Both the position numbers and the translations under genes were made by a program. From Candidatus Omnitrophota bacterium (GTDB lineage: Bacteria > Omnitrophota > Gorgyraeia > Gygaellales > Profunditerraquicolaceae), in NCBI GenBank assembly GCA_026387355.1, contig JAPLLW010000007.1, positions 170,198 through 234,197 on the forward strand: a stretch of DNA of 64,000 nt. The letters run 5' to 3'. Below, piece after piece: positions 39,993-54,334 of the stretch. The stretch's first letter is position 1. Each line of letters opens with the position of its first letter. The notes beneath the pieces were generated by a model. It saw only the letters and a program-made list of their open reading frames with translations. It made no database searches and was not told the DNA's origin.

Positions 39993-40064
39993 ACAAAAAA
40001 AAGGGGTCAGAATTATTTATTCTAGCACATAAACTGTTGAATAAATAATTCTGACCCCTTTTTT
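39993..40064. repeat. palindromic mini-repeat element, long-loop form (copy A)
   Basis: Arms 'AAGGGGTCAGAATTATTTATTC' / 'GAATAAATAATTCTGACCCCTT' form a perfect ~24-bp inverted repeat around a 16-nt loop, with A- and T-runs outside. Lies immediately 3' of the gene ending at 40079. Confidence 0.7.
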
Positions 40065-40078
40065 ACCCTTTACTCAAC

Positions 40079-40504
40079 TTACCAAAGGTAATCTTTTATC
40101 TTCTGATCAGCCCTTAAATAAGCATATTCAGGAACCATTACCGGCTTATTATAAGGCGGAACCATGAAAGTCAATGTATCAAATACCCCCGCTCCTGCGC
40201 GAATCACGCTAGTAACTGCTCCCTGAACCAGACCAAATGTTATGCCTGTTAACGGATCAGTTTCATCAGATACTTTACATACCTGAGCTGGAATTTCTGT
40301 CCAGAAACCCACGCTATTCATTACCCCGCGATTCAGCTTGTTTATCGGCCTATCGCCATACGGGATCTTATCCGCATCGATTACAGGAATCGTGTTTATG
40401 CTACCATATTCAATATAATCATCCCCCATTTCATGCGCATACACAAATGAGGTTGCAGCCATTAAAACTACCAAAGCAAAAAGTACTAAAATCAAATTTT
40501 TCAT
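40079..40504 (-). CDS. exosortase-system-associated small secreted protein (TIGR04073-like)
   Basis: Signal peptide plus 'KLNRGVMNSVGFWTEIP...RAGAGVFDTLTFMVP', matching my recollection of the TIGR04073 family pattern (RGxxN...G(W/F)xEIP ... R(T/A)GAG..(E/D)..TF..P). Confidence 0.5.
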   Translation of the reverse strand: MKNLILVLFALVVLMAATSFVYAHEMGDDYIEYGSINTIPVIDADKIPYGDRPINKLNRGVMNSVGFWTEIPAQVCKVSDETDPLTGITFGLVQGAVTSVIRAGAGVFDTLTFMVPPYNKPVMVPEYAYLRADQKIKDYLW

Positions 40505-40959: not shown

Positions 40960-40988
40960 CAAAAAACCCTAAAAGGCTTATTTAGGGT
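40960..40988 (-). terminator. rho-independent terminator (minus strand)
   Basis: Minus strand: 'CCCTAAAtaagcctTTTAGGG' followed by 'TTTTTTGTTT'. Confidence 0.55.
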
Positions 40989-41260
40989 TCATCCTTTTGG
41001 TAACCCCGCTATCCGCCACACTTCATGACGGACCGGAAGCTTTGCCTCTGCTTCGCTCTTTAATTAATGACTTATTAACTTTCGAGCTTCGCAGAGCCCT
41101 ACGAAGTCCGTCATAGCTTTTTCAAGCCTATTAAAGGACGAAGTAGGGGCCCCAACATTACTGTTAGTTTGCCTCCGCCACACTTCGTGGCGGACCCGCC
41201 ATCTTTGTGGCGGGTTTATCACTAGGTCAAATGCACCAAATTGTCAAAGTGTCAAATTAC
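40960..41260 (-). ncRNA. candidate ~300-nt highly structured small RNA or long leader (unclassified)
   Basis: Bounded by a near-consensus sigma70 promoter (41261-41296) and an intrinsic terminator (40960-40988). Contains several perfect GC-rich hairpins ('CCCGCCAcaaagaTGGCGGG', 'CCGCCACgaagtGTGGCGG', 'GGGGCCCC') and nested long-range pairings ('TGACGGAC'...'GTCCGTCA'). No match recognised to RNase P, SRP, tmRNA, 6S or common riboswitch cores. Confidence 0.3.
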
Positions 41261-44840: not shown

Positions 44841-44877
44841 AGGTGCATTATAGCATTTTCGACCCTAAAAACAACAA

Positions 44878-44969
44878 TAAATGGGGTCAGAATTAATTCA
44901 AATAAAGGGGTCAGAATTATTTATTCAAACCTTAATAGCCGGAATAAATAATTCTGACCCCTTTATTTC
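44878..44969. repeat. palindromic mini-repeat element, composite (half short-form + full long-loop form; copy B)
   Basis: 'AATAAATGGGGTCAGAATTAATTC' is the left half of the short palindrome. Then come the arms 'AAGGGGTCAGAATTATTTATTC' / 'GAATAAATAATTCTGACCCCTT' around a 15-nt loop. The element abuts the stop codon of the gene ending at 44969. Confidence 0.7.
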
Positions 44970-47191
44970 TACTTTGGGTCAAAAAGTGTCCCCAAGAGCA
45001 ATAGGCTGCTCAACTTAAAAGCGACAATAAGTAAACAAGCGTTAAAAAAGCCTAGGATTGGTAAAAATACAACTCCTGCGAATATACCAGCTAACCAACC
45101 ACCTATAAGATCGCAGGCATAAAGTACACCTGAAGTACTACCTACCTTATCTTCTTTACTAGAGTATAACTTTCCAGCTAAAGGAAATTCCAACCCCATC
45201 AACATCCCTGATATGAAAAACAACAAGTAAAAAACTGTTGAATTTACGAATCCTGCAAAATTAACGATAAAATACCCAACACTAAAAGAAAATACAGCAA
45301 TTAATATCTCTAGCTTAATTAAGGTACGCAAAGCATTCTTTAATTTAGCAAGTTTAGCAGAAATTAAAATACTACCAGCTGCAATTCCAGCCATAAATAT
45401 AGCGGTTAGCATGCTTATATTCTGATATAAAGACCCATAAAAAGCCTGGTATGCAAATATCAACAGCAGATTAACCAACATCCCAAAGAATCCGGTTGTA
45501 AAAATTGCGTAGGCAACTGGAATCTTCTGGCTACGTCTCAATTTTGCTACTAAACATACTCCTAGTACAATCAATAAAACCATAATTAAACTAATCTTTA
45601 GATTTACATATTCAAAATAATCAAAAACCCTGCTAAATTGCGCTGAAAACTTTTTATTTATAATCATTAGCGTCTGGAAAACTGCTAACGGACGCAAATC
45701 CCGATTCTGCTCTTTTGTTGCTCCGGACATTTGCCGATTAAACCAATCTACCCAATCGTTGCTTAATCTATATTCAAGATATTTTGGAATTAAAATATCT
45801 TGCGGTATATTATTCCTAAATATTCTTTCGGATAATACTTTCGAACTAACTTGCATAATTTCACTAGAATCAGAGGCAATAAATATATTGCAATCTCCGG
45901 GTATCACTCGCACATACTTATTAACAAACCTCAACGAATTTAACACACTAGCATTTAAGTCTTTTAATTCTTGGCTCATATACGCCAATGAACCCGGCAT
46001 CCATAATGCTAGCAAACCGCCAGGATTTAAATGCTGCTTAGCTAATGCAAAAAACTCTGTAGTAAAATATCGATTACTTGATAAATCGGATTGATTTGAA
46101 AACCCAAACATTATTACATCGTAATGCGATTTATTATCTCTTAAGAATAACTTGGGGTCTGTATTAACTATTTTTATTCTCCCGTCGCTGAATTCCTTGA
46201 CCGTTAAAGCTGTGGAATACTTTTTAAGCTTTTCTATGATTATCGGGTCAATTTCAACATAATCTAACCTTTTAATTGGATACTGTAAAATCTCAGCAAT
46301 CAAACCACCCGCTCCTGAGCCTGCCAATAAAACCTTTTGTGGGCTAGGACTAAATAATAACGGAAGATTACCAAATTCCTTTACAAATTGCTTATCAGGA
46401 TACGGCGAGATTATAATCGGAATACCATTATAAAAGAATGTATACTGCTCAAGCTTTTTCGTAACAACGATATTGGCATAACTGGAATTTTGATAGTTCA
46501 AGACCTGCTGATTACTCCACTGTTTTTTCACTGACTCGCTCTGAAAATTATCTATTATGCTGCGCGAAAATAGAACAAAAATCAAAATAACAACAGCGGT
46601 AGCCAGATGTTTTATATTTCTTTTCGGGATTAATTGTACAGAAACCACTAAATTCAAGAATGAAATAATAAAAACGGTTTGAAAAGAATTAAAATTAGGG
46701 ATAAGCGCATATGTCAAAAGGGCTCCACCGATAATTGTCCCTAAAGTTTCCCAGGTATATATTTTACCCAGCGAATTCTCAGGCTTTTTGAGCGAATACA
46801 CCTTACAACCACAACTAAACAGACCGCCGTGTAAAAAAGCTAACGGCAAAATTATTAGAAACGACACGCTAAATATTACGGGTAAAGAAATACCTTCGGC
46901 AAAAGGTATTCCTAGAATTGTCTTAAATATCCTTGAGTAATAAATAGCAACAGGCAAAATCAAAGAAAATATGGTATTCATAACGATAAAGAAACTTAAT
47001 CTAGCCTTGATCTTATCTACAAGCTTTCCAATTACGTAGACGCCCAATGCCTCTAGAATCACCCAATTAGCCAGTATGATGCCAATGGTAAGTTCATTCC
47101 CCTGAAAACTCACCAATAGCTCGCGCAAGATAAGCACCTGCGCAACTATTCCGCTTAACCCGACTAGTAATATGGCAACTAATATATTCAT
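44969..47191 (-). CDS. polytopic membrane protein with embedded spermidine-synthase-like (aminopropyltransferase-fold) domain
   Basis: About 8 N-terminal TM helices. Central 'KVLLAGSGAGGLIAEILQYPIKRLDYVEIDPIIIEKLKKY' resembles the spermidine synthase SAM-binding signature. More TM helices at the C-terminus. The ORF track begins at a TTG at 47203; the ATG at 47191 (MNILVA...) is the more likely start. Confidence 0.65.
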   Translation of the reverse strand: MNILVAILLVGLSGIVAQVLILRELLVSFQGNELTIGIILANWVILEALGVYVIGKLVDKIKARLSFFIVMNTIFSLILPVAIYYSRIFKTILGIPFAEGISLPVIFSVSFLIILPLAFLHGGLFSCGCKVYSLKKPENSLGKIYTWETLGTIIGGALLTYALIPNFNSFQTVFIISFLNLVVSVQLIPKRNIKHLATAVVILIFVLFSRSIIDNFQSESVKKQWSNQQVLNYQNSSYANIVVTKKLEQYTFFYNGIPIIISPYPDKQFVKEFGNLPLLFSPSPQKVLLAGSGAGGLIAEILQYPIKRLDYVEIDPIIIEKLKKYSTALTVKEFSDGRIKIVNTDPKLFLRDNKSHYDVIMFGFSNQSDLSSNRYFTTEFFALAKQHLNPGGLLALWMPGSLAYMSQELKDLNASVLNSLRFVNKYVRVIPGDCNIFIASDSSEIMQVSSKVLSERIFRNNIPQDILIPKYLEYRLSNDWVDWFNRQMSGATKEQNRDLRPLAVFQTLMIINKKFSAQFSRVFDYFEYVNLKISLIMVLLIVLGVCLVAKLRRSQKIPVAYAIFTTGFFGMLVNLLLIFAYQAFYGSLYQNISMLTAIFMAGIAAGSILISAKLAKLKNALRTLIKLEILIAVFSFSVGYFIVNFAGFVNSTVFYLLFFISGMLMGLEFPLAGKLYSSKEDKVGSTSGVLYACDLIGGWLAGIFAGVVFLPILGFFNACLLIVAFKLSSLLLLGTLFDPK

Positions 47192-47200
47192 ATCAGTAAA

Positions 47201-47236
47201 CAAAAAGGGGTCAGAATTAATTCTGACCCCTTTTTG
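47201..47236. repeat. palindromic mini-repeat element, short form (copy C), acting as gap terminator
   Basis: 'CAAAAAGGGGTCAGAATTAATTCTGACCCCTTTTTG' is a perfect 36-bp palindrome between gap (end 47273) and the downstream gene start. Confidence 0.75.
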
Positions 47237-47272
47237 TTAGGAATAACTAGATGAACCGCATAAATTCAGCTA

Positions 47273-48365: not shown

Positions 48366-49350
48366 CTATTTCGAATTTAAATATTTAGCGGCTAACTCCG
48401 GAGGCGTAGAATTGACGTAGAAACCCGTACCCCATTCAAAACCTGCGACCTGTGTCAGCTTAGGCATAAACTCAATATGCCAATGATAAAACTCTCCGTC
48501 CCCTTCACCATTAATCGGAGCAGAGTGAACAATATAATTATATGAAAGATTCGGGAAAACCCTCTTCATCTTTACAATTGTCTCTTTTAGGATCTCTCCA
48601 AGGGCAGAGAGTTCTCCGGATAAATCCTGACAAAAATGACCGCTATGCTTCTTAGGAATTATCCAGGTTTCAAAAGGAAAACGCGAAACAAAAGGGCAAA
48701 AAGATAAAAAGAACTTATTCTCCGCAACTATGCGCTCTTTTTCCTCAATCTCTTGTCTGATAATATCGCAAAATATGCATCGCTCCCGGAAATCAAAATA
48801 TGCCTTTGCCCCATGTATCTCCTCTAGCGCATTCTTGGGAACCATAGGAAGCGCAACAATCTGTGTGTGTGGATGCTCTAAGGACGCCCCTGCTGCAGGA
48901 CCAAAATTCCTAAAATACATCAAATATTTAAAACGTTTATCTTTTGCTAAATCCGTTCCTCGACGGCAACACATCCTTAAATAATTTTCAACTTCAATCT
49001 GAAATATCTTTTGCATGATACGGTGTTTCAATTAAAACCTCATGCGCACCAACGCCATTTGACATATCATAAAGACCAAGTGGCCTACGATCAAGATCAC
49101 CTTCAATCTGTAAGGCAGGATATTTATTTGCCACTACGCGCACCTGCCACCCTGAACTGTTCGGCCAGGTCTGAGGATCACGAATTGACTCAATTTCGGG
49201 AGGAGTCATAGACTCATTGCCGTAACAAAATGGACAGACTCCGCCTTTCGGGACATACTGATCGTATTGAAAATCATCCGGTCTCGAAGGATGATCTGTA
49301 TCTACAATCACCCACCTACCTACAATAGGATCTTTTCTTAATTCAGCCAT
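48366..49350 (-). pseudogene. GalT-like HIT-family hexose-1-phosphate nucleotidyltransferase, frameshifted (two overlapping ORFs 48994..49350 and 48366..49031)
   Basis: The N-terminal ORF ('ELRKDPIVGRWVIV...CPFCYG...') and C-terminal ORF (canonical 'HPHTQIVALP' HxHxQ) together are collinear with the intact paralogue upstream. A +1/-1 shift occurs near 48994-49031, in an A/T homopolymer context. Confidence 0.6.
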
Positions 49351-50403: not shown

Positions 50404-51366
50404 TTATTCAACTGCTTTTTTATAGTAGCTCCCAAAACAATCGCCTATTTTAACCTTGTGCCCATGAACAAAATCTTTAGCATTCATCCTCTTCCCGCCC
50501 TCAAGCTGTAATTCTTCAATAACTAAAACGCCCTTGCCGCATACCACAAGTATCCCATCCTGGTTAACAGCCAATACGTGTGAGCAAGAAACCGAGTCCT
50601 GCTGGCTCAAACCTTCCATGCATTTGGCTTTAAATATCTTTAGCGTCTTATTCTTAAAATATGTAAAAGCCCCCGGCCAAGGCAAGCTCCCTCTTATAAG
50701 GTTATAGATCTCGACTGAGTTTTTACACCAATCAATATACCCATCTGTTTTTTTAAGCTTAGGAGCATAGCTTACCTTCTCCTCGTCTTGCGCAACTAGC
50801 TTATATTTCTTATTCTTAATCTCGTCCAGCGCCTCAATTAATAATTCTGACCCCAATTTACGTAACTTTTCCTCAATAATCACAGAATCATCATTATCTG
50901 CAATCGATATAGCTTCCTGGAGTATTATCGGACCGGAATCCATCTTCCTTGTCACCTGCATAATAGTTATGCCTGTAGTCCTATCTCCCTGCATAATTGC
51001 CCAATTTACAGGAGCTGCTCCGCGATATTTCGGTAGCAATGAAGCGTGAATATTTATGGGTAAGATTTTCGGTATATCCAAAACTTTTTGAGACAATATT
51101 TGGCCATAAGCTACGACTACAAATAAATCTGCCCCAAATTTAATAATCTGCTTAACCGATTCAGCCGAATTCACATCCTTAGGCTGGAAAATTTCAAGGT
51201 CTGCCTTCTGCGCAACAAACTTGACGTCTGTACCAGCTAAATGCAGATGGCGGCCCTTTTTCTGATCCGGTTGCGTCACCACGCAACAAATATCTTGTTT
51301 GCTTTTGATCAAAGCCTCAAGCGCAGGAACTGCAAAATGTGAGCTACCAAAAAATATGATTTTCAT
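50404..51366 (-). CDS. fmt: methionyl-tRNA formyltransferase
   Basis: 'KIIFFGSSHFAVPALEAL', 'NIHASLLPKYRGAAPVNWAIMQGDRTTGITIMQ' and the C-terminal Fmt domain. Confidence 0.9.
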   Translation of the reverse strand: MKIIFFGSSHFAVPALEALIKSKQDICCVVTQPDQKKGRHLHLAGTDVKFVAQKADLEIFQPKDVNSAESVKQIIKFGADLFVVVAYGQILSQKVLDIPKILPINIHASLLPKYRGAAPVNWAIMQGDRTTGITIMQVTRKMDSGPIILQEAISIADNDDSVIIEEKLRKLGSELLIEALDEIKNKKYKLVAQDEEKVSYAPKLKKTDGYIDWCKNSVEIYNLIRGSLPWPGAFTYFKNKTLKIFKAKCMEGLSQQDSVSCSHVLAVNQDGILVVCGKGVLVIEELQLEGGKRMNAKDFVHGHKVKIGDCFGSYYKKAVE

Positions 51367-51396: not shown

Positions 51397-53256
51397 CTAT
51401 ACCGGATCCACATCAATCGTCACTATTATACCTGAATGACGAAAGCCTTTTAAGCCTTTTCTTATAAATTCTCCTGCCAAGGCGACCTTACCCGTACGCA
51501 ACAATACCTGCCAATAAAAATTACCCCGCAGCTTCGGAGGGTTAGTTGGAGTAACCGCAACTATTCCCAACTCCTTACTCTTATTTTCTTTTGTCAATTT
51601 ATTAAACAAAGCTTCAGCCGCAACTTTTACCTTCTCTTCACTTTTACCACGCAGTTTGACTAAAATCAAATGACTAAAGGGCGGAAAATTAAGTTGTTTT
51701 CTCTGCTTTAACTCTGCTTCATAGAAATAACTTTCATCTTTTTTAAAAAGCGCCTGAAAACAATGATGGGTAGGAGAACTTGTCTGAATTAAAATATTCT
51801 TATCCGTAAGCACTAATAGCCCGGCGAGCAATTCAAAGACTTTTTCAGTTGCGCGAAAATCAACGCGATTAAGAGTATTGTCTATGCCCAATACTCCGAT
51901 AAGATCAAAATTTAGATCAGCCCTTCTAATTACGCTGCTCGTAGCTATAAATATATCTGCATCGGATATATCCTGGCAGGCTTCATCCCAAATCTTAATT
52001 CGCGCTTGAGGAAAAATTCTAGATAGCTCACTCTCCATTTTTTCAGTCCCCCCTCCGGAAAATTTAATATATCCGGCGTTACACTCAGGACATATTTTGG
52101 GAGGCTCGATCTTATAATTACAATAATGACAACTCAGCAAATTGCCTTTGTAGTGATAAACCAAGTTTATATTGCAACGTGGGCACTTTAACACTTTACC
52201 ACAGGCATGACATGCTGCCTGAGTAGCAAAACCTTTTCGATTCAAAAATAAGAGTACCTTGCCCTTTGTATTCAAAACAACATAGATTGCATCTTCAAGT
52301 ATCCTAGCAACAACCTGCTTTTTCTTTCTATCTACAAATGCCAGATGTCTGGTATCGATAAGCTTAACATCGGGAAATCTACTTTTTCTTGGTACAAGCG
52401 TGTACTTGGCTTTATCTTTCTTGCTTGAATAATAGCTTTCTAGCGAAGGAACCCTGCTTCCCAAAATTAGCTTTGCACCTTCAATTTTAGCGCGCAGAAA
52501 ACCAGCTTCTCTTGCGTGATAATGCGGCACCTGATCTTGTTTATATACGCTGCTTGCTTCATCATCAATAATAATTAAACCTAAATTATTTAAAGGAGCA
52601 AAAATAGCTGAGCGCGTCCCTGCTATTACCTGAGCCCCTCCTGATTTAACCTTTAACCATGCATCTAACTCCTTAGGTTGCTTTCTATATAAAGGTTGAA
52701 CTTCAATACCAAGTTCTTTATTAATCATTGAGCTTACCTTAGCAATATCATGAACATCCGGTAACAAAACTATCGCCGACTGATTGTTCTTTAATATCTG
52801 CTTTATTTCATTAATATACACACCCCATCTTGCCCTACCATCCAAATCATGAATTAGGGAGACCTTTTTGTCCAAATAAATGGGGTCAGAATTAATTCTG
52901 ACCCCATTTATAGAAGAATCCCCTGAGATAATCTTCTTCCCTTTTCTCAAATCATCCGGTATCGCTACCTCAATCGCTTCACCCCATGAACAGCAATAAT
53001 ATTCCGAAAGCTCTTTTGTAATCAGCAACATCTCTTTACTCAACAAAGGAACCTTATCAATTAATTCTAAAATCGGCTTTAATCTTTTAATTTCGCTTTT
53101 TTTAACTAAATCCGTAACATAACCAACTATGCGTCTAGTCCCAAAACTAACCCAAACTCTTGAACCAATCTTTATTTGCTCTGCGCAATTATCCGGGACA
53201 ATATAATCAAACGGCCCGCTTACCGGTAGCCCCACTACTACCTTAGCGAATAGCAT
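51397..53256 (-). CDS. priA: primosomal protein N' (PriA) homologue lacking canonical helicase ATPase motifs
   Basis: Collinear with E. coli PriA. Has the 3'-DNA-binding N-terminus, 'IIIDDEASSVYKQDQVPHYHAR' (versus E. coli IVIDEEHDSSYKQ) and the Cys-rich Zn region 'CHACGKVLKCPRCNINLVYHYKGNLLSCHYCNYKIEPPKICPEC'. The Walker A position reads 'DLDGRARWGVY' instead of GVTGSGKTEVY. Confidence 0.85.
   Translation of the reverse strand: MLFAKVVVGLPVSGPFDYIVPDNCAEQIKIGSRVWVSFGTRRIVGYVTDLVKKSEIKRLKPILELIDKVPLLSKEMLLITKELSEYYCCSWGEAIEVAIPDDLRKGKKIISGDSSINGVRINSDPIYLDKKVSLIHDLDGRARWGVYINEIKQILKNNQSAIVLLPDVHDIAKVSSMINKELGIEVQPLYRKQPKELDAWLKVKSGGAQVIAGTRSAIFAPLNNLGLIIIDDEASSVYKQDQVPHYHAREAGFLRAKIEGAKLILGSRVPSLESYYSSKKDKAKYTLVPRKSRFPDVKLIDTRHLAFVDRKKKQVVARILEDAIYVVLNTKGKVLLFLNRKGFATQAACHACGKVLKCPRCNINLVYHYKGNLLSCHYCNYKIEPPKICPECNAGYIKFSGGGTEKMESELSRIFPQARIKIWDEACQDISDADIFIATSSVIRRADLNFDLIGVLGIDNTLNRVDFRATEKVFELLAGLLVLTDKNILIQTSSPTHHCFQALFKKDESYFYEAELKQRKQLNFPPFSHLILVKLRGKSEEKVKVAAEALFNKLTKENKSKELGIVAVTPTNPPKLRGNFYWQVLLRTGKVALAGEFIRKGLKGFRHSGIIVTIDVDPV
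52877..52912. repeat. palindromic mini-repeat element, short form (copy D), inserted in-frame inside priA
   Basis: 'ATAAATGGGGTCAGAATTAATTCTGACCCCATTTAT' is a perfect 36-bp palindrome identical in core to copies B and C. It translates in the priA frame as ...SINGVRINSDPIYL... Confidence 0.75.
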
Positions 53257-54334
53257 CAGCTATCTCCTGGCAGGCAAATGGCTTTTTTATATTTTCAATC
53301 CTAGCCTTCATTTGCTTCAGCTTATGGGGATTATTCTTAAAATCAATTACTATATCTCTAAGCTCTGTTAAATTCTTTGGTGTTAAACCTACACCAAACT
53401 CCTTTAGCGCTTGAATATTCCCGGCTTCTTGCCCGGGAATTACAGCTATGAAAATTGGAACTAAATCCATATTAACAACTTCGGCAATAGTTGAGCCCCC
53501 TGCCTTAGAGACTATCAAATCAGAAACAGCCATCAGCTCTTCAGTATTATCTATATACCCGTATACCTCTACGTTCGGAAGATTCTTTTTTAATAAACGC
53601 TTATACAATTTCTTATTTGATGCGCAAATAACCAAAACTTGAACATCGACAGATAATAATTCAGCTGCCTTCTCAAGAGGACCTATGCCAAATGACCCGG
53701 TCATTAATAATACAGTAAATTTATCTGGAGAGATATCTAACTTCGTAGCTAAAGCTCTCCTATCAAACTGCTGCGTAAATTTAGGGTGAAATGGTAACCC
53801 AAAAACTTTGATTAATTCCGGCTTAACCCCCTCAGCTAACAGCCTCTTTTTTGTAAACTCTGAGGCTACAACATATAAATCAGTATACTTGTTTATCCAA
53901 TAAGGATGCACGCCAAAATCTGTAATTACCGTGACTAATTTTGACTTAATCTTACGGTGCCTCTTAAGCAATCCCGCGATATTAGAAGGGAGAAAATGAG
54001 TCGAAATAATCACATCCGGGTTTTTACGAATAAGATACCGTATAAAACTTACAGAATTAATATTATTGATAAAGGTGGCAAGCGGAGAACTTATAAAGCG
54101 GAATAATTTATACTGCGTAAGCCAGAATGCAAAATTCCATCCGCCTACGGCGTATTTTACCAAAACAGAATACCCGACTGTGTTATTAAATCTAAACAAC
54201 GCATTCGTCTTATCCAGTACATCAATTAATTTAAGGCCATAATCTGGATGAGCGCTTTTTAAATAATCATACACTGCTTCGGCTGCCCTGCGATGCCCAG
54301 CCCCGGCAGATGCATGGGCAATTAATACTCTCAT
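53243..54334 (-). CDS. MGDG-synthase-like / GT28-family diacylglycerol glycosyltransferase
   Basis: N-terminal 'MRVLIAHASAGAGHRRAAEAVYDYL' (MGDG_synth-type N-domain) and a C-terminal GT-B domain. Confidence 0.7.
   Translation of the reverse strand: MRVLIAHASAGAGHRRAAEAVYDYLKSAHPDYGLKLIDVLDKTNALFRFNNTVGYSVLVKYAVGGWNFAFWLTQYKLFRFISSPLATFINNINSVSFIRYLIRKNPDVIISTHFLPSNIAGLLKRHRKIKSKLVTVITDFGVHPYWINKYTDLYVVASEFTKKRLLAEGVKPELIKVFGLPFHPKFTQQFDRRALATKLDISPDKFTVLLMTGSFGIGPLEKAAELLSVDVQVLVICASNKKLYKRLLKKNLPNVEVYGYIDNTEELMAVSDLIVSKAGGSTIAEVVNMDLVPIFIAVIPGQEAGNIQALKEFGVGLTPKNLTELRDIVIDFKNNPHKLKQMKARIENIKKPFACQEIADAIR

What the first reader, a model, noticed from the sequence alone, without database searches (positions are those of the whole stretch)
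52877..52912. Palindromic repeat element inserted in-frame within the priA coding sequence
A 36-bp perfect palindrome with the same core as the intergenic elements lies inside priA. It reads through in frame, encoding 'NGVRINSDPIYL' at about residues 117-128, in the linker between the N-terminal DNA-binding domain and the degenerate helicase core. It adds exactly 12 codons and no stop. In-frame coding insertions of palindromic elements are well known from Rickettsia RPEs but rare elsewhere. The palindrome could also form an intragenic RNA hairpin that affects priA expression.
Basis: seen in the sequence. Interest (0 to 1): 0.75.

Follow-up and report, generated by a model that had tools for sequence, protein, structure and literature searches.

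The report
Terminator-like hairpin repeat translated inside priA
A 36-base perfect palindrome from this Omnitrophota genome's family of terminator-like hairpin repeats is translated as 12 floppy linker residues of the replication-restart protein PriA, and related genomes carry their own hairpin repeats at the same spot, so this linker has hosted such hairpins for a long time rather than taking a single insertion.

Summary
A perfect 36-bp palindrome lies at 52876-52911. It fills codons 116-127 (INGVRINSDPIY) of priA exactly, in the only open frame of three.

It is a canonical member of a hairpin-repeat family with arm AAA(T/C)GGGGTCAGAATTA.... The family has three other full copies and two half copies in the window, and it occurs in at least 8 other Omnitrophota MAGs. 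Most copies sit just downstream of a stop codon, with an A-run before and a T-run after, like bidirectional intrinsic terminators.

The 12 residues fall inside the only low-confidence segment of the AlphaFold model (113-128). This is a short tether that replaces the winged-helix domain of enterobacterial PriA.

The claim that the element adds exactly 12 codons is not shown. The linker is 27 aa against 20-42 aa in 103 orthologues.

The new result is that 6 of 10 orthologues with DNA in hand also have a strong, mostly terminator-like hairpin in this linker. Three of those loci also hold intergenic hairpins, and in all three the linker hairpin belongs to the same family. The window keeps decayed arms of an older hairpin on both sides of the palindrome.

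My best reading is long-term occupancy of a permissive linker, with the occupant replaced over time. A selected intragenic attenuator is not excluded.

The parts
52876..52911 (.). Perfect 36-bp palindrome (18+18 nt, no spacer). It is a short-type copy of the GGGGTCAGAATT hairpin-repeat family and is translated on the minus strand as PriA I116-Y127 (INGVRINSDPIY).
   Evidence: The family profile gives the best score in the window. The RNA hairpin has a 16-bp stem and 4-nt loop; the 71-nt context has centroid -26.3 and MFE -27.4 kcal/mol, z -4.4.
51397..53256 (-). priA, 619 aa. It has the 3'BD, the Cys-rich zinc ribbon and the PriA C-terminal domain. It has no winged-helix domain, and Walker A/B are degenerate (GRARW, DDEA).
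   Evidence: Pfam and NCBIfam. Alignment to the 4NL4 PriA structure sequence. 100% match to a protein that NCBI names as from a Candidatus Omnitrophica MAG.
52855..52935 (-). PriA linker, residues 108-134, between LRKGK and IHDLDG. It is hypervariable in length and sequence among orthologues and is disordered in the model.
   Evidence: Linker lengths. In the AlphaFold2 model, pLDDT is below 50 only at residues 113-128, with mean pLDDT 87.6. This is the most stable 90-nt RNA window of the whole gene.
52910..52923 (-). Probable decayed left arm of an older hairpin. GGGGATTCTTCTAT codes G-D-S-S-I. Compare GGGGACGGTTCTAT, coding G-D-G-S-I, in relatives.
   Evidence: MAFFT places it under the relatives' left arms. 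'GD' sits at the same linker position in P0002, P0005, P0006, P0008 and P0013. This is an inference and is only suggestive.
52855..52869 (-). Probable decayed right arm of the older hairpin. AAAAAGGTCTCCCTA codes K-K-V-S-L. Compare AAAAATAGAACCGTCCCCTTT, coding K-I-E-P-S-P-F, in relatives.
   Evidence: Read from the sequences. This is an inference and is only suggestive.
47199..47238 (.). Short-type family copy, a perfect 40-bp palindrome AACAAAAAGGGGTCAGAATT|AATTCTGACCCCTTTTTGTT. It starts 34 nt downstream of the GAPDH stop codon and has a terminator-like form.
44900..44968 (.). Long-type family copy, 27-nt arms and a 15-nt loop. It abuts the stop codon of the spermidine-synthase-like gene.
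44875..44898 (+). Half copy, AATAAATGGGGTCAGAATTAATTC. It is identical over 24 nt to the left side of the priA copy and is the closest relative of the priA element in the window.
39997..40064 (.). Long-type family copy, 26-nt arms and a 16-nt loop. It ends 14 nt from the stop codon of the minus-strand ORF at 40079..40504.
50840..50859 (-). Single arm inside fmt, coding ...LGSELLI.... There is no indel relative to orthologues. It differs by about 3 substitutions from the relatives' sequence GGAGCGGAATTA.
   Evidence: (E 8.6e-5).

Best explanation
The palindrome is a genuine copy of this genome's terminator-like hairpin repeat. The arm is AAA(T/C)GGGGTCAGAATTA..., and copies normally sit just after stop codons with A-run and T-run flanks. 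This copy lies inside priA and is translated in its only open frame as 12 residues of an unstructured tether between the 3' DNA-binding domain and the helicase-like core.

It is not a single hit on a naive gene. The priA linker of this Omnitrophota subclade has carried a terminator-type hairpin since before these lineages split. Where it can be checked, the occupant in each genome resembles that genome's own intergenic hairpin family (GGGGACGGTTCT..., GGGGACAC..., and here GGGGTCAGAATT).

In the window the perfect palindrome is the newest layer. It sits between decayed arm remnants of an older hairpin.

I infer that the occupant is replaced either by nested insertion into an existing hairpin or by short-patch gene conversion between hairpins that share the AAAGGGG(A/T)C...G(A/T)CCCCTTT base.

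The protein tolerates the element because the segment is disordered and of unconstrained sequence.

The RNA forms a 16-bp hairpin followed by AUUUAUUU. It is predicted to act at most as a translation-sensitive partial terminator. I do not assume that this is exploited.

Shown: the palindrome, family membership, frame, disorder, hairpins in relatives, and family matching within genomes.
Inferred: ancestry of the hairpin, mechanism of replacement, the remnants, and any terminator activity.
For: - Family membership: the same 24-nt core occurs at 47207-47230. There are ten exact half sites in the window and none with one mismatch. A profile from other MAGs scores the priA arms best.
- Terminator-like placement: 21 of 33 element clusters in other Omnitrophota-type loci, and all 3 intergenic copies in the window, lie within 45 nt after a stop codon. 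Arm positions -6 to -2 are A-rich, which mirrors to a T-run on the other side.
- Frame and disorder.
- Relatives: strong linker hairpins occur in L099, L102, L097, L096, L100 and L101, with dG -29 to -47 kcal/mol, z -3.8 to -8.9 and 0 of 200 shuffles as stable. In the window, L098, L099, L102, L096 and L101 the linker is the most stable 90-nt window of the whole gene.
- Family matching within genomes: the L096 linker hairpin matches an intergenic hairpin 9 kb away at 47 of 53 positions, loop included. The L097 linker arms match the L097 gap-spe intergenic hairpin. L099 shows the same pattern.
- Arm conservation: L101 and L097 arms are 28/32 identical, while the genes are 68% identical and third codon positions 46%.
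- Decay or absence in L095, L098, L103 and L104 shows that the hairpin is dispensable.
- Nested or composite elements occur elsewhere in the family: window 44875-44968, and L045, L070 and L088.
- A second in-frame copy of the same 24-nt palindrome lies in a variable loop of a cytochrome c peroxidase in a gammaproteobacterial MAG.
Against: - No conspecific or near relative is available. The nearest PriA is 69-70% identical, so there is no empty site and no dated insertion event.
- The remnant arms in the window are short and degenerate. Their homology is only suggestive.
- High arm conservation and compensatory changes (G-C in L101 against C-G in L102 at the same pair; 8 of 19 consensus pairs carry double changes) would fit selection for the structure equally well. 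That would make the hairpin functional rather than a tolerated passenger.
- Independent insertions and vertical inheritance with homogenisation cannot be separated with ten lineages.
- No transposase or other mobilising enzyme was identified next to any copy.
- Terminator activity is untested. The simple terminator scan did not flag these elements, probably because their A/T flanks pair and use up the T-run.
Confidence: 0.55

Rival explanations
1. The hairpin is a selected intragenic attenuator. It is kept because it works as a translation-coupled intrinsic terminator, or another RNA or DNA structure, that lowers priA and downstream expression relative to the upstream glycosyltransferase genes, whose last member overlaps the priA start. 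The stem sequence is free to change as long as pairing and the U-tract are kept.
For: - A hairpin sits at the same place in 7 of 11 lineages, counting the window, whose synonymous sites are near saturation.
- The arms are much more conserved than the gene average and the loops are not.
- Compensatory pair changes occur.
- Five of the six relatives' hairpins and the window's have U-rich tails in the sense orientation, and A-runs precede them.
- An intergenic nested hairpin between the HAD and MGDG genes appears conserved between L097 and L099. I read this by eye and did not align it. If it holds, it suggests that this class of hairpin is under constraint in these genomes.
- The MGDG-synthase gene overlaps the priA start (53243-53256), so there is no intergenic space for a terminator.
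Against: - L095, L103 and L104 lack the hairpin and L098 has only a weak one, so PriA and the operon work without it.
- Termination here would give non-stop mRNAs that encode only the 3'BD.
- Family matching to each genome's intergenic repeats, including the loop in L096, is what copy-and-paste predicts. It is not what independent structural selection predicts.
- Palindromic insertions mimic covariation.
Confidence: 0.28
2. One reading: a single recent RPE-like insertion of a 36-bp mobile palindrome into a previously ordinary priA linker, adding exactly 12 codons.
For: - The palindrome is perfect, codon-phased and a multiple of three in length.
- A 24-nt identical half copy lies at 44875-44898.
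- The residues are absent from all the other PriA sequences retrieved.
Against: - Removing 12 aa leaves a 15-aa linker, shorter than all 103 orthologues, whose minimum is 20.
- The relatives' linkers are already hairpin repeats.
- There is no target-site duplication. This is read directly from the flanks GTCCAA / AGAAGA.
- The two long copies in the window, and the copies within the other MAGs, share arms but not loops, so those copies did not move as a conventional MITE unit.
Confidence: 0.1
3. The arm is a protein-recognised signal comparable to the DNA uptake sequences of Neisseria and Pasteurellaceae, which also form inverted-pair terminators and occur inside genes. The priA and fmt copies would then arise by biased recombination rather than insertion.
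For: - Conservation is at the level of the roughly 23-nt arm, while loops are unique.
- The same arm occurs in MAGs whose loci range from 40 to 58% GC.
- The fmt half site arose without an indel from an already similar sequence.
- From memory, not a test: ATGGGGTCAGAA resembles the Neisseria 12-mer ATGCCGTCTGAA at 9 of 12 positions.
Against: - Density is low, 10 half sites in 64 kb and all within 13 kb. Eight of the ten are in pairs.
- There is no halo of one-mismatch copies: 10 exact copies and none with one mismatch.
- Three syntenic relatives have no copy in 22 kb each.
- No competence genes were examined.
Confidence: 0.07
4. Assembly artefact: a repeat-induced chimera or a spurious insertion at the palindrome.
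For: The sequence comes from a metagenome-assembled genome and no reads are available. The contig is not in the indexed collections.
Against: - Both flanks are the same gene, on the same strand and in the same frame.
- Domain order and gene order (MGDG synthase, priA, fmt) match six relatives.
- The model folds with pTM 0.84.
- The repeat is 24-36 bp, below usual assembler k-mer sizes (inference).
- Independent assemblies of relatives show hairpins at the same site.
Confidence: 0.02

Closest known systems
[quoted passage not shown] 2011, PMC3049150)
   Same: Both are small interspersed repeats made of a long duplex (18 bp in SPRITE) followed by a U-rich tract. Both have AAAA/TTTT ends and are enriched close to the 3' ends of genes. 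Neither has a detectable target-site duplication or a linked transposase. SPRITE elements were suggested to be co-opted as terminators.
   Different: The sequences are unrelated and the phylum is different. The family here conserves only the arms, with unique loops of 0-40 nt. It spans many species-level MAGs, and some relatives carry other hairpin families instead. One copy is translated inside an essential-type gene. SPRITE insertions within coding sequence are not mentioned in the passages I read.
Rickettsia palindromic elements (RPEs; summarised in PMC10969869)
   Same: Both are palindromic repeats found in frame inside unrelated protein-coding genes and are translated into segments compatible with protein function.
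   Different: [quoted passage not shown] Here the element is 36 bp. Coding copies are the exception: one full and one half copy among 38 clusters examined in the window and Omnitrophota-type loci. The family otherwise looks like terminators. Sequence similarity to RPEs was not tested.
REP/BIME elements with RAYT transposases
   Same: Both are short palindromes, mostly extragenic, often paired or clustered, and present in many copies.
   Different: No GTAG-type 5' tetranucleotide is visible in the arm consensus. No Y1 transposase was found among the 10 neighbouring ORFs. REPs are imperfect palindromes in which each unit folds. Here a non-palindromic arm is paired with its inverted copy.
Inverted pairs of DNA uptake sequences (Neisseria DUS, Pasteurellaceae USS; intragenic bias discussed in PMC2346458)
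   Same: In both, a conserved arm of about 12-23 nt occurs as inverted pairs that form terminators downstream of genes. Both show occasional copies inside coding sequence in tolerant positions, and related lineages carry variant forms.
   Different: Density here is far lower. Nearly all copies are paired, and there are no near-match copies. No link to competence is shown.
Intragenic intrinsic terminators and attenuators
   Same: A GC-based stem plus a U-rich tail lies inside a transcribed and translated region. It could couple transcription read-through to ribosome occupancy.
   Different: No experimental 3' ends are available. Known attenuators lie in leaders or between genes, not in a protein's inter-domain linker where they are translated.

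Membership tests
This genome's GGGGTCAGAATT hairpin-repeat family | Arm consensus (A/G)(A/G)AAA(T/C)GGGGTCAGAATTA followed by its inverted copy | tested here: met
   Both priA arms are the best nhmmer hits in the window to a profile built from 61 arms of other MAGs (26.8 and 26.4 bits). The 24-nt core is identical to 47207-47230.
This genome's GGGGTCAGAATT hairpin-repeat family | Located within a few tens of nt downstream of a stop codon | tested here: not met
   The priA copy is 345 nt into the ORF. All 3 other full copies in the window, and 21 of 33 clusters elsewhere, are within 45 nt after a stop.
Intrinsic (Rho-independent) terminator | Stable GC-containing stem-loop immediately followed by a U-tract on the transcript | tested here: inconclusive
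   The stem is 16 bp (71-nt context: centroid -26.3 kcal/mol). The tail is AUUUAUUUGG, with 6 U in the first 8 but interrupted. The consensus scan did not call it or its intergenic siblings.
Intrinsic (Rho-independent) terminator | Transcripts actually end there | not testable with these tools
   No transcript data are available.
Rickettsia palindromic elements (RPE) | Inserted in frame in protein-coding genes and translated | tested here: met
   Codon-phased, 12 codons, no stop.
Rickettsia palindromic elements (RPE) | About 150 bp, encoding a conserved peptide, and frequently intragenic | tested here: not met
   The element is 36 bp. The two in-frame copies of the core seen are read in different frames: GVRINSDP in priA and GSELILTP in the L069 peroxidase. 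Intragenic copies are rare (RPE definition from PMC10969869).
MITE | Terminal inverted repeats plus a conserved internal sequence, and a target-site duplication | tested here: not met
   Within most genomes the arms are conserved and the loops unrelated. The exception is L096, where the loop is shared too. No direct repeat flanks the priA copy.
REP / RAYT system | Conserved 5' GTAG-like tetranucleotide and an associated Y1 (RAYT) transposase gene | tested here: inconclusive
   No GTAG is present in the arm profile. The 10 neighbouring ORFs have no transposase domain. The rest of the genome was not available.
DNA uptake sequence (DUS/USS) | Roughly one copy per kb in both orientations, mostly single, with many one-mismatch variants | tested here: not met
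   There are 10 exact half sites in 64 kb, 8 of them in pairs, and none with one mismatch.
DNA uptake sequence (DUS/USS) | Competence machinery with a sequence-specific receptor | not tested
   Only 64 kb of the genome was seen.
PriA (replication restart helicase) | 3'BD, Cys-rich zinc ribbon and C-terminal domain | tested here: met
   PF17764, PF18319 and PF18074 all score above their cut-offs. TIGR00595 scores 374.9 bits against a cut-off of 230.
PriA (replication restart helicase) | Walker A GxGKT and DExH motifs of an active superfamily 2 ATPase | tested here: not met
   GSGKT aligns to GRARW and DEEH to DDEA against 4NL4. HDLDGxARW is shared by the Omnitrophota orthologues.

The most novel reading that the evidence does not exclude
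The hairpin inside priA is a selected cis-element. On this reading, a translation-coupled intrinsic terminator, or another nucleic-acid structure, has been maintained for a long time within the inter-domain linker of an essential-type gene. It is translated as a disordered tether, and its stem co-evolves with, or is homogenised against, each genome's own families of repeated terminator hairpins. Omnitrophota would then reuse a small set of fixed-sequence hairpins as standard terminators, which implies a sequence-specific factor or copying mechanism.
Probability: 0.25. Interest if true: 0.75.

Novelty: new variant of a known kind. Interest (0 to 1): 0.55.

Why it matters
In-frame palindromic repeats in genes are known, and so are terminator-like repeat families. 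Two things are unusual here.

- One inter-domain linker of one housekeeping protein carries such a hairpin in seven of eleven lineages sampled, counting the window, whose synonymous sites are near saturation. Where the locus allows a check, its stem sequence follows that genome's repeat family.
- The same arm sequence serves as the apparent terminator after unrelated genes in at least 8 Omnitrophota MAGs whose loci range from 40 to 58% GC.

If the hairpin is selected, it is a compact example of a coding sequence shaped by an RNA or DNA structure and of attenuation placed inside an ORF. If it is not selected, it shows how a disordered linker can act as a long-lived landing pad where small repeats overwrite one another.

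Either way it offers a tractable handle on transcription termination and repeat dynamics in an uncultured phylum. It also warns annotators that linker peptides such as GDGSIF...KIEPSPF and INGVRINSDPIY are translated hairpins.

Tried and rejected
- The exact-protein lookup for the window's PriA found no record, so the rest of the 241-kb contig could not be read.
- Metagenome scans for an empty site and for the filled site both returned nothing. The nearest PriA among 5.8 billion proteins is 69% identical. A presence/absence test within the species is therefore impossible with these data.
- A viral-contig scan for the arm found nothing.
- Rfam at a permissive threshold gave only sub-threshold generic hairpin hits on the elements.
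- Full-text searches for the motif and for Omnitrophota palindromic repeats found nothing relevant.
- The consensus terminator scan did not flag any family copy, probably because the A/T flanks pair.
- Candidate intragenic copies in L008, L043, L045, L030 and window 47207 were rejected. The elements lie upstream of the likely start codons or in unsupported open frames, one of which spans a run of N.
- P0004 had no DNA on file.
- Programmed -1 frameshifting was considered, because some relatives have A AAA AAA before the stem. I rejected it because the window has no slippery site and the stem follows with no spacer.
- Chance origin is rejected by the shuffles and the profile scores.
- I did not search for the translated peptides across the protein database, because E-values for a 10-12 aa query would be meaningless.
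Full report
**1. The observation**

Reading the sequence and the inverted-repeat search show a perfect, spacerless 36-bp palindrome at 52876-52911, ATAAATGGGGTCAGAATT|AATTCTGACCCCATTTAT. This is one base to the left of the reported coordinates, and the next bases outward do not pair.

It lies in a 619-codon minus-strand ORF (51397..53256). That ORF has the PriA 3' DNA-binding domain, the Cys-rich zinc ribbon and the PriA C-terminal domain and passes the TIGR00595 priA cut-off. It is 100% identical to a protein that NCBI names as from a Candidatus Omnitrophica MAG, on a 241-kb contig.

The element begins exactly at codon 116 and encodes INGVRINSDPIY. The other two frames of the 36-mer contain stops.

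It is not a chance palindrome.
- The 24-nt core occurs twice against 0.00 expected.
- The 11-mer arm occurs ten times against 0.78 expected, all exact.
- The only other long perfect palindrome in the window (47199-47238) has the same core.

**2. The family**

The window holds:
- two long hairpins (39997-40064 and 44900-44968), with 26-27-nt arms and unrelated 15-16-nt loops;
- two spacerless palindromes (47199-47238 and the priA copy);
- a half copy at 44875-44898, identical over 24 nt to the left side of the priA copy;
- a single arm inside fmt.

A scan of one genome per species found the same arm in at least 8 MAGs labelled Omnitrophota or Omnitrophica, whose fetched loci range from 40 to 58% GC. 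It also found the arm in a few MAGs labelled only 'bacterium' or Planctomycetales. In these MAGs the arms are conserved, with consensus (A/G)(A/G)AAA(T/C)GGGGTCAGAATTATTTAT, while the loops differ from copy to copy.

With crude ORF calls, 21 of 33 clusters in those loci lie within 45 nt downstream of a stop codon, as do all three intergenic copies in the window. The A-run before the stem and the T-run after it give the shape of a bidirectional intrinsic terminator. The predicted RNA hairpin contexts are stable, at about -27 to -42 kcal/mol.

A profile made only from the other MAGs' arms ranks the two priA arms first in the window, so the priA copy is a canonical member. Rfam has no such family, and the literature searches found no description of it.

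The closest described analogue in kind is pneumococcal SPRITE. It has an 18-bp duplex plus a U-rich tract, AAAA/TTTT ends, and enrichment at the 3' ends of genes. It has no detectable target-site duplication and no linked transposase (PMC3049150).

**3. Where the element sits in the protein**

Alignment to Klebsiella PriA (4NL4) shows that residues 4-108 match the 3'BD and residues 134-588 match the helicase lobes. The roughly 110-residue winged-helix domain is missing and is replaced by a short tether.

An AlphaFold2 model built on 78 orthologues is confident overall (mean pLDDT 87.6, pTM 0.84). Its only segment below pLDDT 50 is residues 113-128, which covers the palindrome-encoded residues 116-127.

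GSGKT aligns to GRARW and DEEH to DDEA. HDLDGxARW is shared by the Omnitrophota orthologues, so this is a property of the clade and not of this gene copy.

**4. Was it an insertion of 12 codons?**

None of the 119 other PriA sequences retrieved, 116 of them full-length and aligned, has these residues. Three syntenic relatives (L095, L096, L097) share the gene order MGDG synthase, priA, fmt, two GalT-like genes and gap. Each has no copy of even GGGGTCAG in 22 kb.

However, the linker from LRKGK to IHDLDG is 27 aa here, against 20-42 aa (mode 21-22) in 103 orthologues. Removing 12 aa would leave 15 aa, shorter than any orthologue. No conspecific sequence exists in the collections: the nearest PriA is 69-70% identical, and metagenome scans for both the empty and the filled site were negative. 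A clean 36-bp gain cannot be shown.

**5. The unexpected result: relatives carry hairpins at the same site**

I fetched priA DNA for ten orthologues. Six of them have a strong hairpin in the same linker.

| Locus (protein) | Stem sequence | dG (kcal/mol) | Note |
|---|---|---|---|
| L101 (P0013) | AAAAAAAGGGGACGGTTCTATTTT ... AAAAATAGAACCGTCCCCTTTTTT | -35.1 | |
| L100 (P0010) | same type as L101 | -28.7 | two mismatches in the stem |
| L097 (P0007) | same type as L101 | -28.8 | partly decayed |
| L102 (P0006) | GGGGACGCTTCGG ... CCGAAGCGTCCCC | -37.8 | |
| L099 (P0005) | GCAGGGGACACTCTG ... CAGGGTGTCCCCTGC | -46.7 | |
| L096 (P0008) | composite of two types | -31.2 | |

The z-scores are -3.8 to -8.9, and none of 200 shuffles per sequence folds as well.
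- In the window, L098, L099, L102, L096 and L101, the linker is the most stable 90-nt window of the entire gene.
- L098 has a weak structure. L095, L103 and L104 have none.
- Five of the six relatives' hairpins have U-rich tails and are preceded by A-runs. The A-runs are supplied partly by the conserved Lys codons of LRKGKK.
- The peptides GDGSIF and KIEPSPF, seen in P0007-P0013, are direct translations of the two arms.

The type of hairpin in the linker matches the same genome's intergenic hairpins.
- The L096 linker hairpin is 47/53 identical, loop included, to a hairpin 9 kb away.
- The L097 linker arms match the L097 gap-spe terminator hairpin, which in turn is identical in its arms to the L101 linker hairpin.
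- L099 shows the same pattern.

Between L101 and L097 the arms are 28/32 identical, although the genes are 68% identical and third codon positions 46%. RNAalifold finds a 19-pair consensus stem with double changes in 8 pairs.

In the window, GGGGATTCTTCTAT (52910-52923, coding GDSSI) and AAAAAGGTCTCCCTA (52855-52869, coding KKVSL) flank the palindrome. They look like decayed arms of the older hairpin. This reading is suggestive only.

**6. Interpretation**

A terminator-type hairpin has lived in this linker since before these lineages diverged. It has decayed in some lineages. In others it has been overwritten by the hairpin family current in that genome.

The window's perfect palindrome is the latest occupant. 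The half copy at 44875-44898 is its nearest relative within the window.

Nested and composite elements elsewhere in the family show that these hairpins land in or recombine with each other (window 44875-44968; L045, L070, L088). The shared AAAGGGG(A/T)C base offers homology for short-patch conversion. That mechanism is an inference. The protein tolerates the segment because it is disordered.

The main rival is that the structure itself is selected, for example as a translation-sensitive attenuator inside an operon whose upstream gene overlaps the priA start.
- Arm conservation, compensatory changes and U-tracts favour it.
- Loss in several lineages, the non-stop transcripts it would create, and the copy-and-paste signature including the loop count against it.

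I put long-term occupancy with replacement at 0.55 and the selected attenuator at 0.28. These two are not fully exclusive.

The other rivals rate lower: a single naive RPE-like insertion at 0.10, an uptake-sequence-like signal at 0.07, and an artefact at 0.02.

**7. Comparison with known systems, and novelty**

As a translated in-frame palindromic repeat, it behaves like RPEs and like the in-frame ERIC, BOX and QMITE cases (PMC10969869). It fails the RPE definition on size, on a conserved peptide and on frequency in coding sequence.

As a family, it behaves like SPRITE. It fails the MITE criteria tested and lacks the REP hallmarks looked for, and its density and near-match profile do not fit uptake sequences.

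I found no description of two features: recurrent occupancy of one protein linker with family turnover, and the use of one fixed arm as the apparent terminator across many MAGs. I rate the finding a new variant of a known kind, with interest 0.55.

**8. Limits**

- Only 64 kb of this genome and 2-22-kb pieces of the relatives were seen.
- ORF calls in the loci are crude.
- Hairpin function is predicted, not measured.
- Ten lineages cannot separate inheritance with homogenisation from repeated insertion.
- The remnant arms are short.

Noticed in passing
L002-L092 (JALZVT01 loci), e.g. L069:6571-6594: The identical 24-nt palindrome GGGGTCAGAATTAATTCTGACCCC is a high-copy repeat in a MAG labelled Pseudomonadales (GC about 56%). 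There are 41 copies of the palindrome, allowing variation at its two central bases, with full flanks in the roughly 300 kb fetched. These copies have purine-rich left flanks and pyrimidine-rich right flanks instead of A/T runs. One copy is in frame (EGSELILTP) in a variable loop of a di-haem cytochrome c peroxidase, and a 68%-identical orthologue is 12 aa shorter there. Why two phyla share the same 24-mer is unexplained. It could be coincidence among very many palindromic families, horizontal transfer, or a shared recognising protein.
   Followed up: partly
window 51397-53256 (residues 134-148 and 229-236) and P0002-P0120: The Omnitrophota PriA orthologues retrieved lack a P-loop (HDLDGxARW in place of GxGKT). 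The window's copy also has DDEA in place of DEEH. These proteins have no winged-helix domain. They may be ATPase-dead PriA proteins.
   Followed up: partly
window 50840-50859 (minus strand, inside fmt 50404..51366): A single family arm with an exact 11-mer (profile E 8.6e-5) lies in a conserved, indel-free part of fmt (LRKLGSELLI). Relatives have GGAGCGGAATTA at this position, so about three substitutions created the arm. Chance and conversion cannot be told apart.
   Followed up: partly
L097:8841-8914 and L099:1407-1480: A nested hairpin lies between the HAD-hydrolase and MGDG-synthase genes, with outer stem GGGACGGTTCTCAA... and inner stem AAAAGTGTCCCC.../GGGGCACTTTT. By eye it appears conserved between two lineages whose synonymous sites are near saturation. 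If so, this hairpin class is constrained or homogenised even in intergenic DNA. I did not align the two regions.
   Followed up: no
L043:6719-6750, L074:4170-4206, L070:1093-1129, L057:1954-1990, L056, L082, L085: Short tandem duplications of an arm end plus its flank occur next to full elements in both the Omnitrophota and the gammaproteobacterial families. Examples are agaaatggggtcag twice and tgaccccatttcccc twice. This may be a footprint of the copying mechanism.
   Followed up: no
window 48366-49350 (minus strand): The second GalT/HIT-like gene is split into ORFs of 118 and 221 aa that overlap by 38 nt. The frame changes between ...HAKDISD and IEVENYLRMCCRRG.... Relatives have a single protein of 332-333 aa. 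This is either a frameshift or an assembly error.
   Followed up: partly
window 40996-41067 (minus strand): A match to the c-di-GMP-I riboswitch aptamer (RF01051) scores 34.4 bits, just under the gathering score of 35 (E 0.0013). It is followed by a terminator-like hairpin at 40964-40990.
   Followed up: no
window 44986-44993: A single arm of the GGGGACAC-type hairpin family (AAAAAGTGTCCCC on the plus strand) lies at the 3' end of the spermidine-synthase-like gene, right next to the 44900-44968 element. More than one hairpin family has therefore left traces in this genome.
   Followed up: no
window 53243-53256: The MGDG-synthase-like gene (53243..54334) overlaps the priA start by 14 nt, as it does in all relatives examined. 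This suggests translational coupling and leaves no intergenic room upstream of priA.
   Followed up: no
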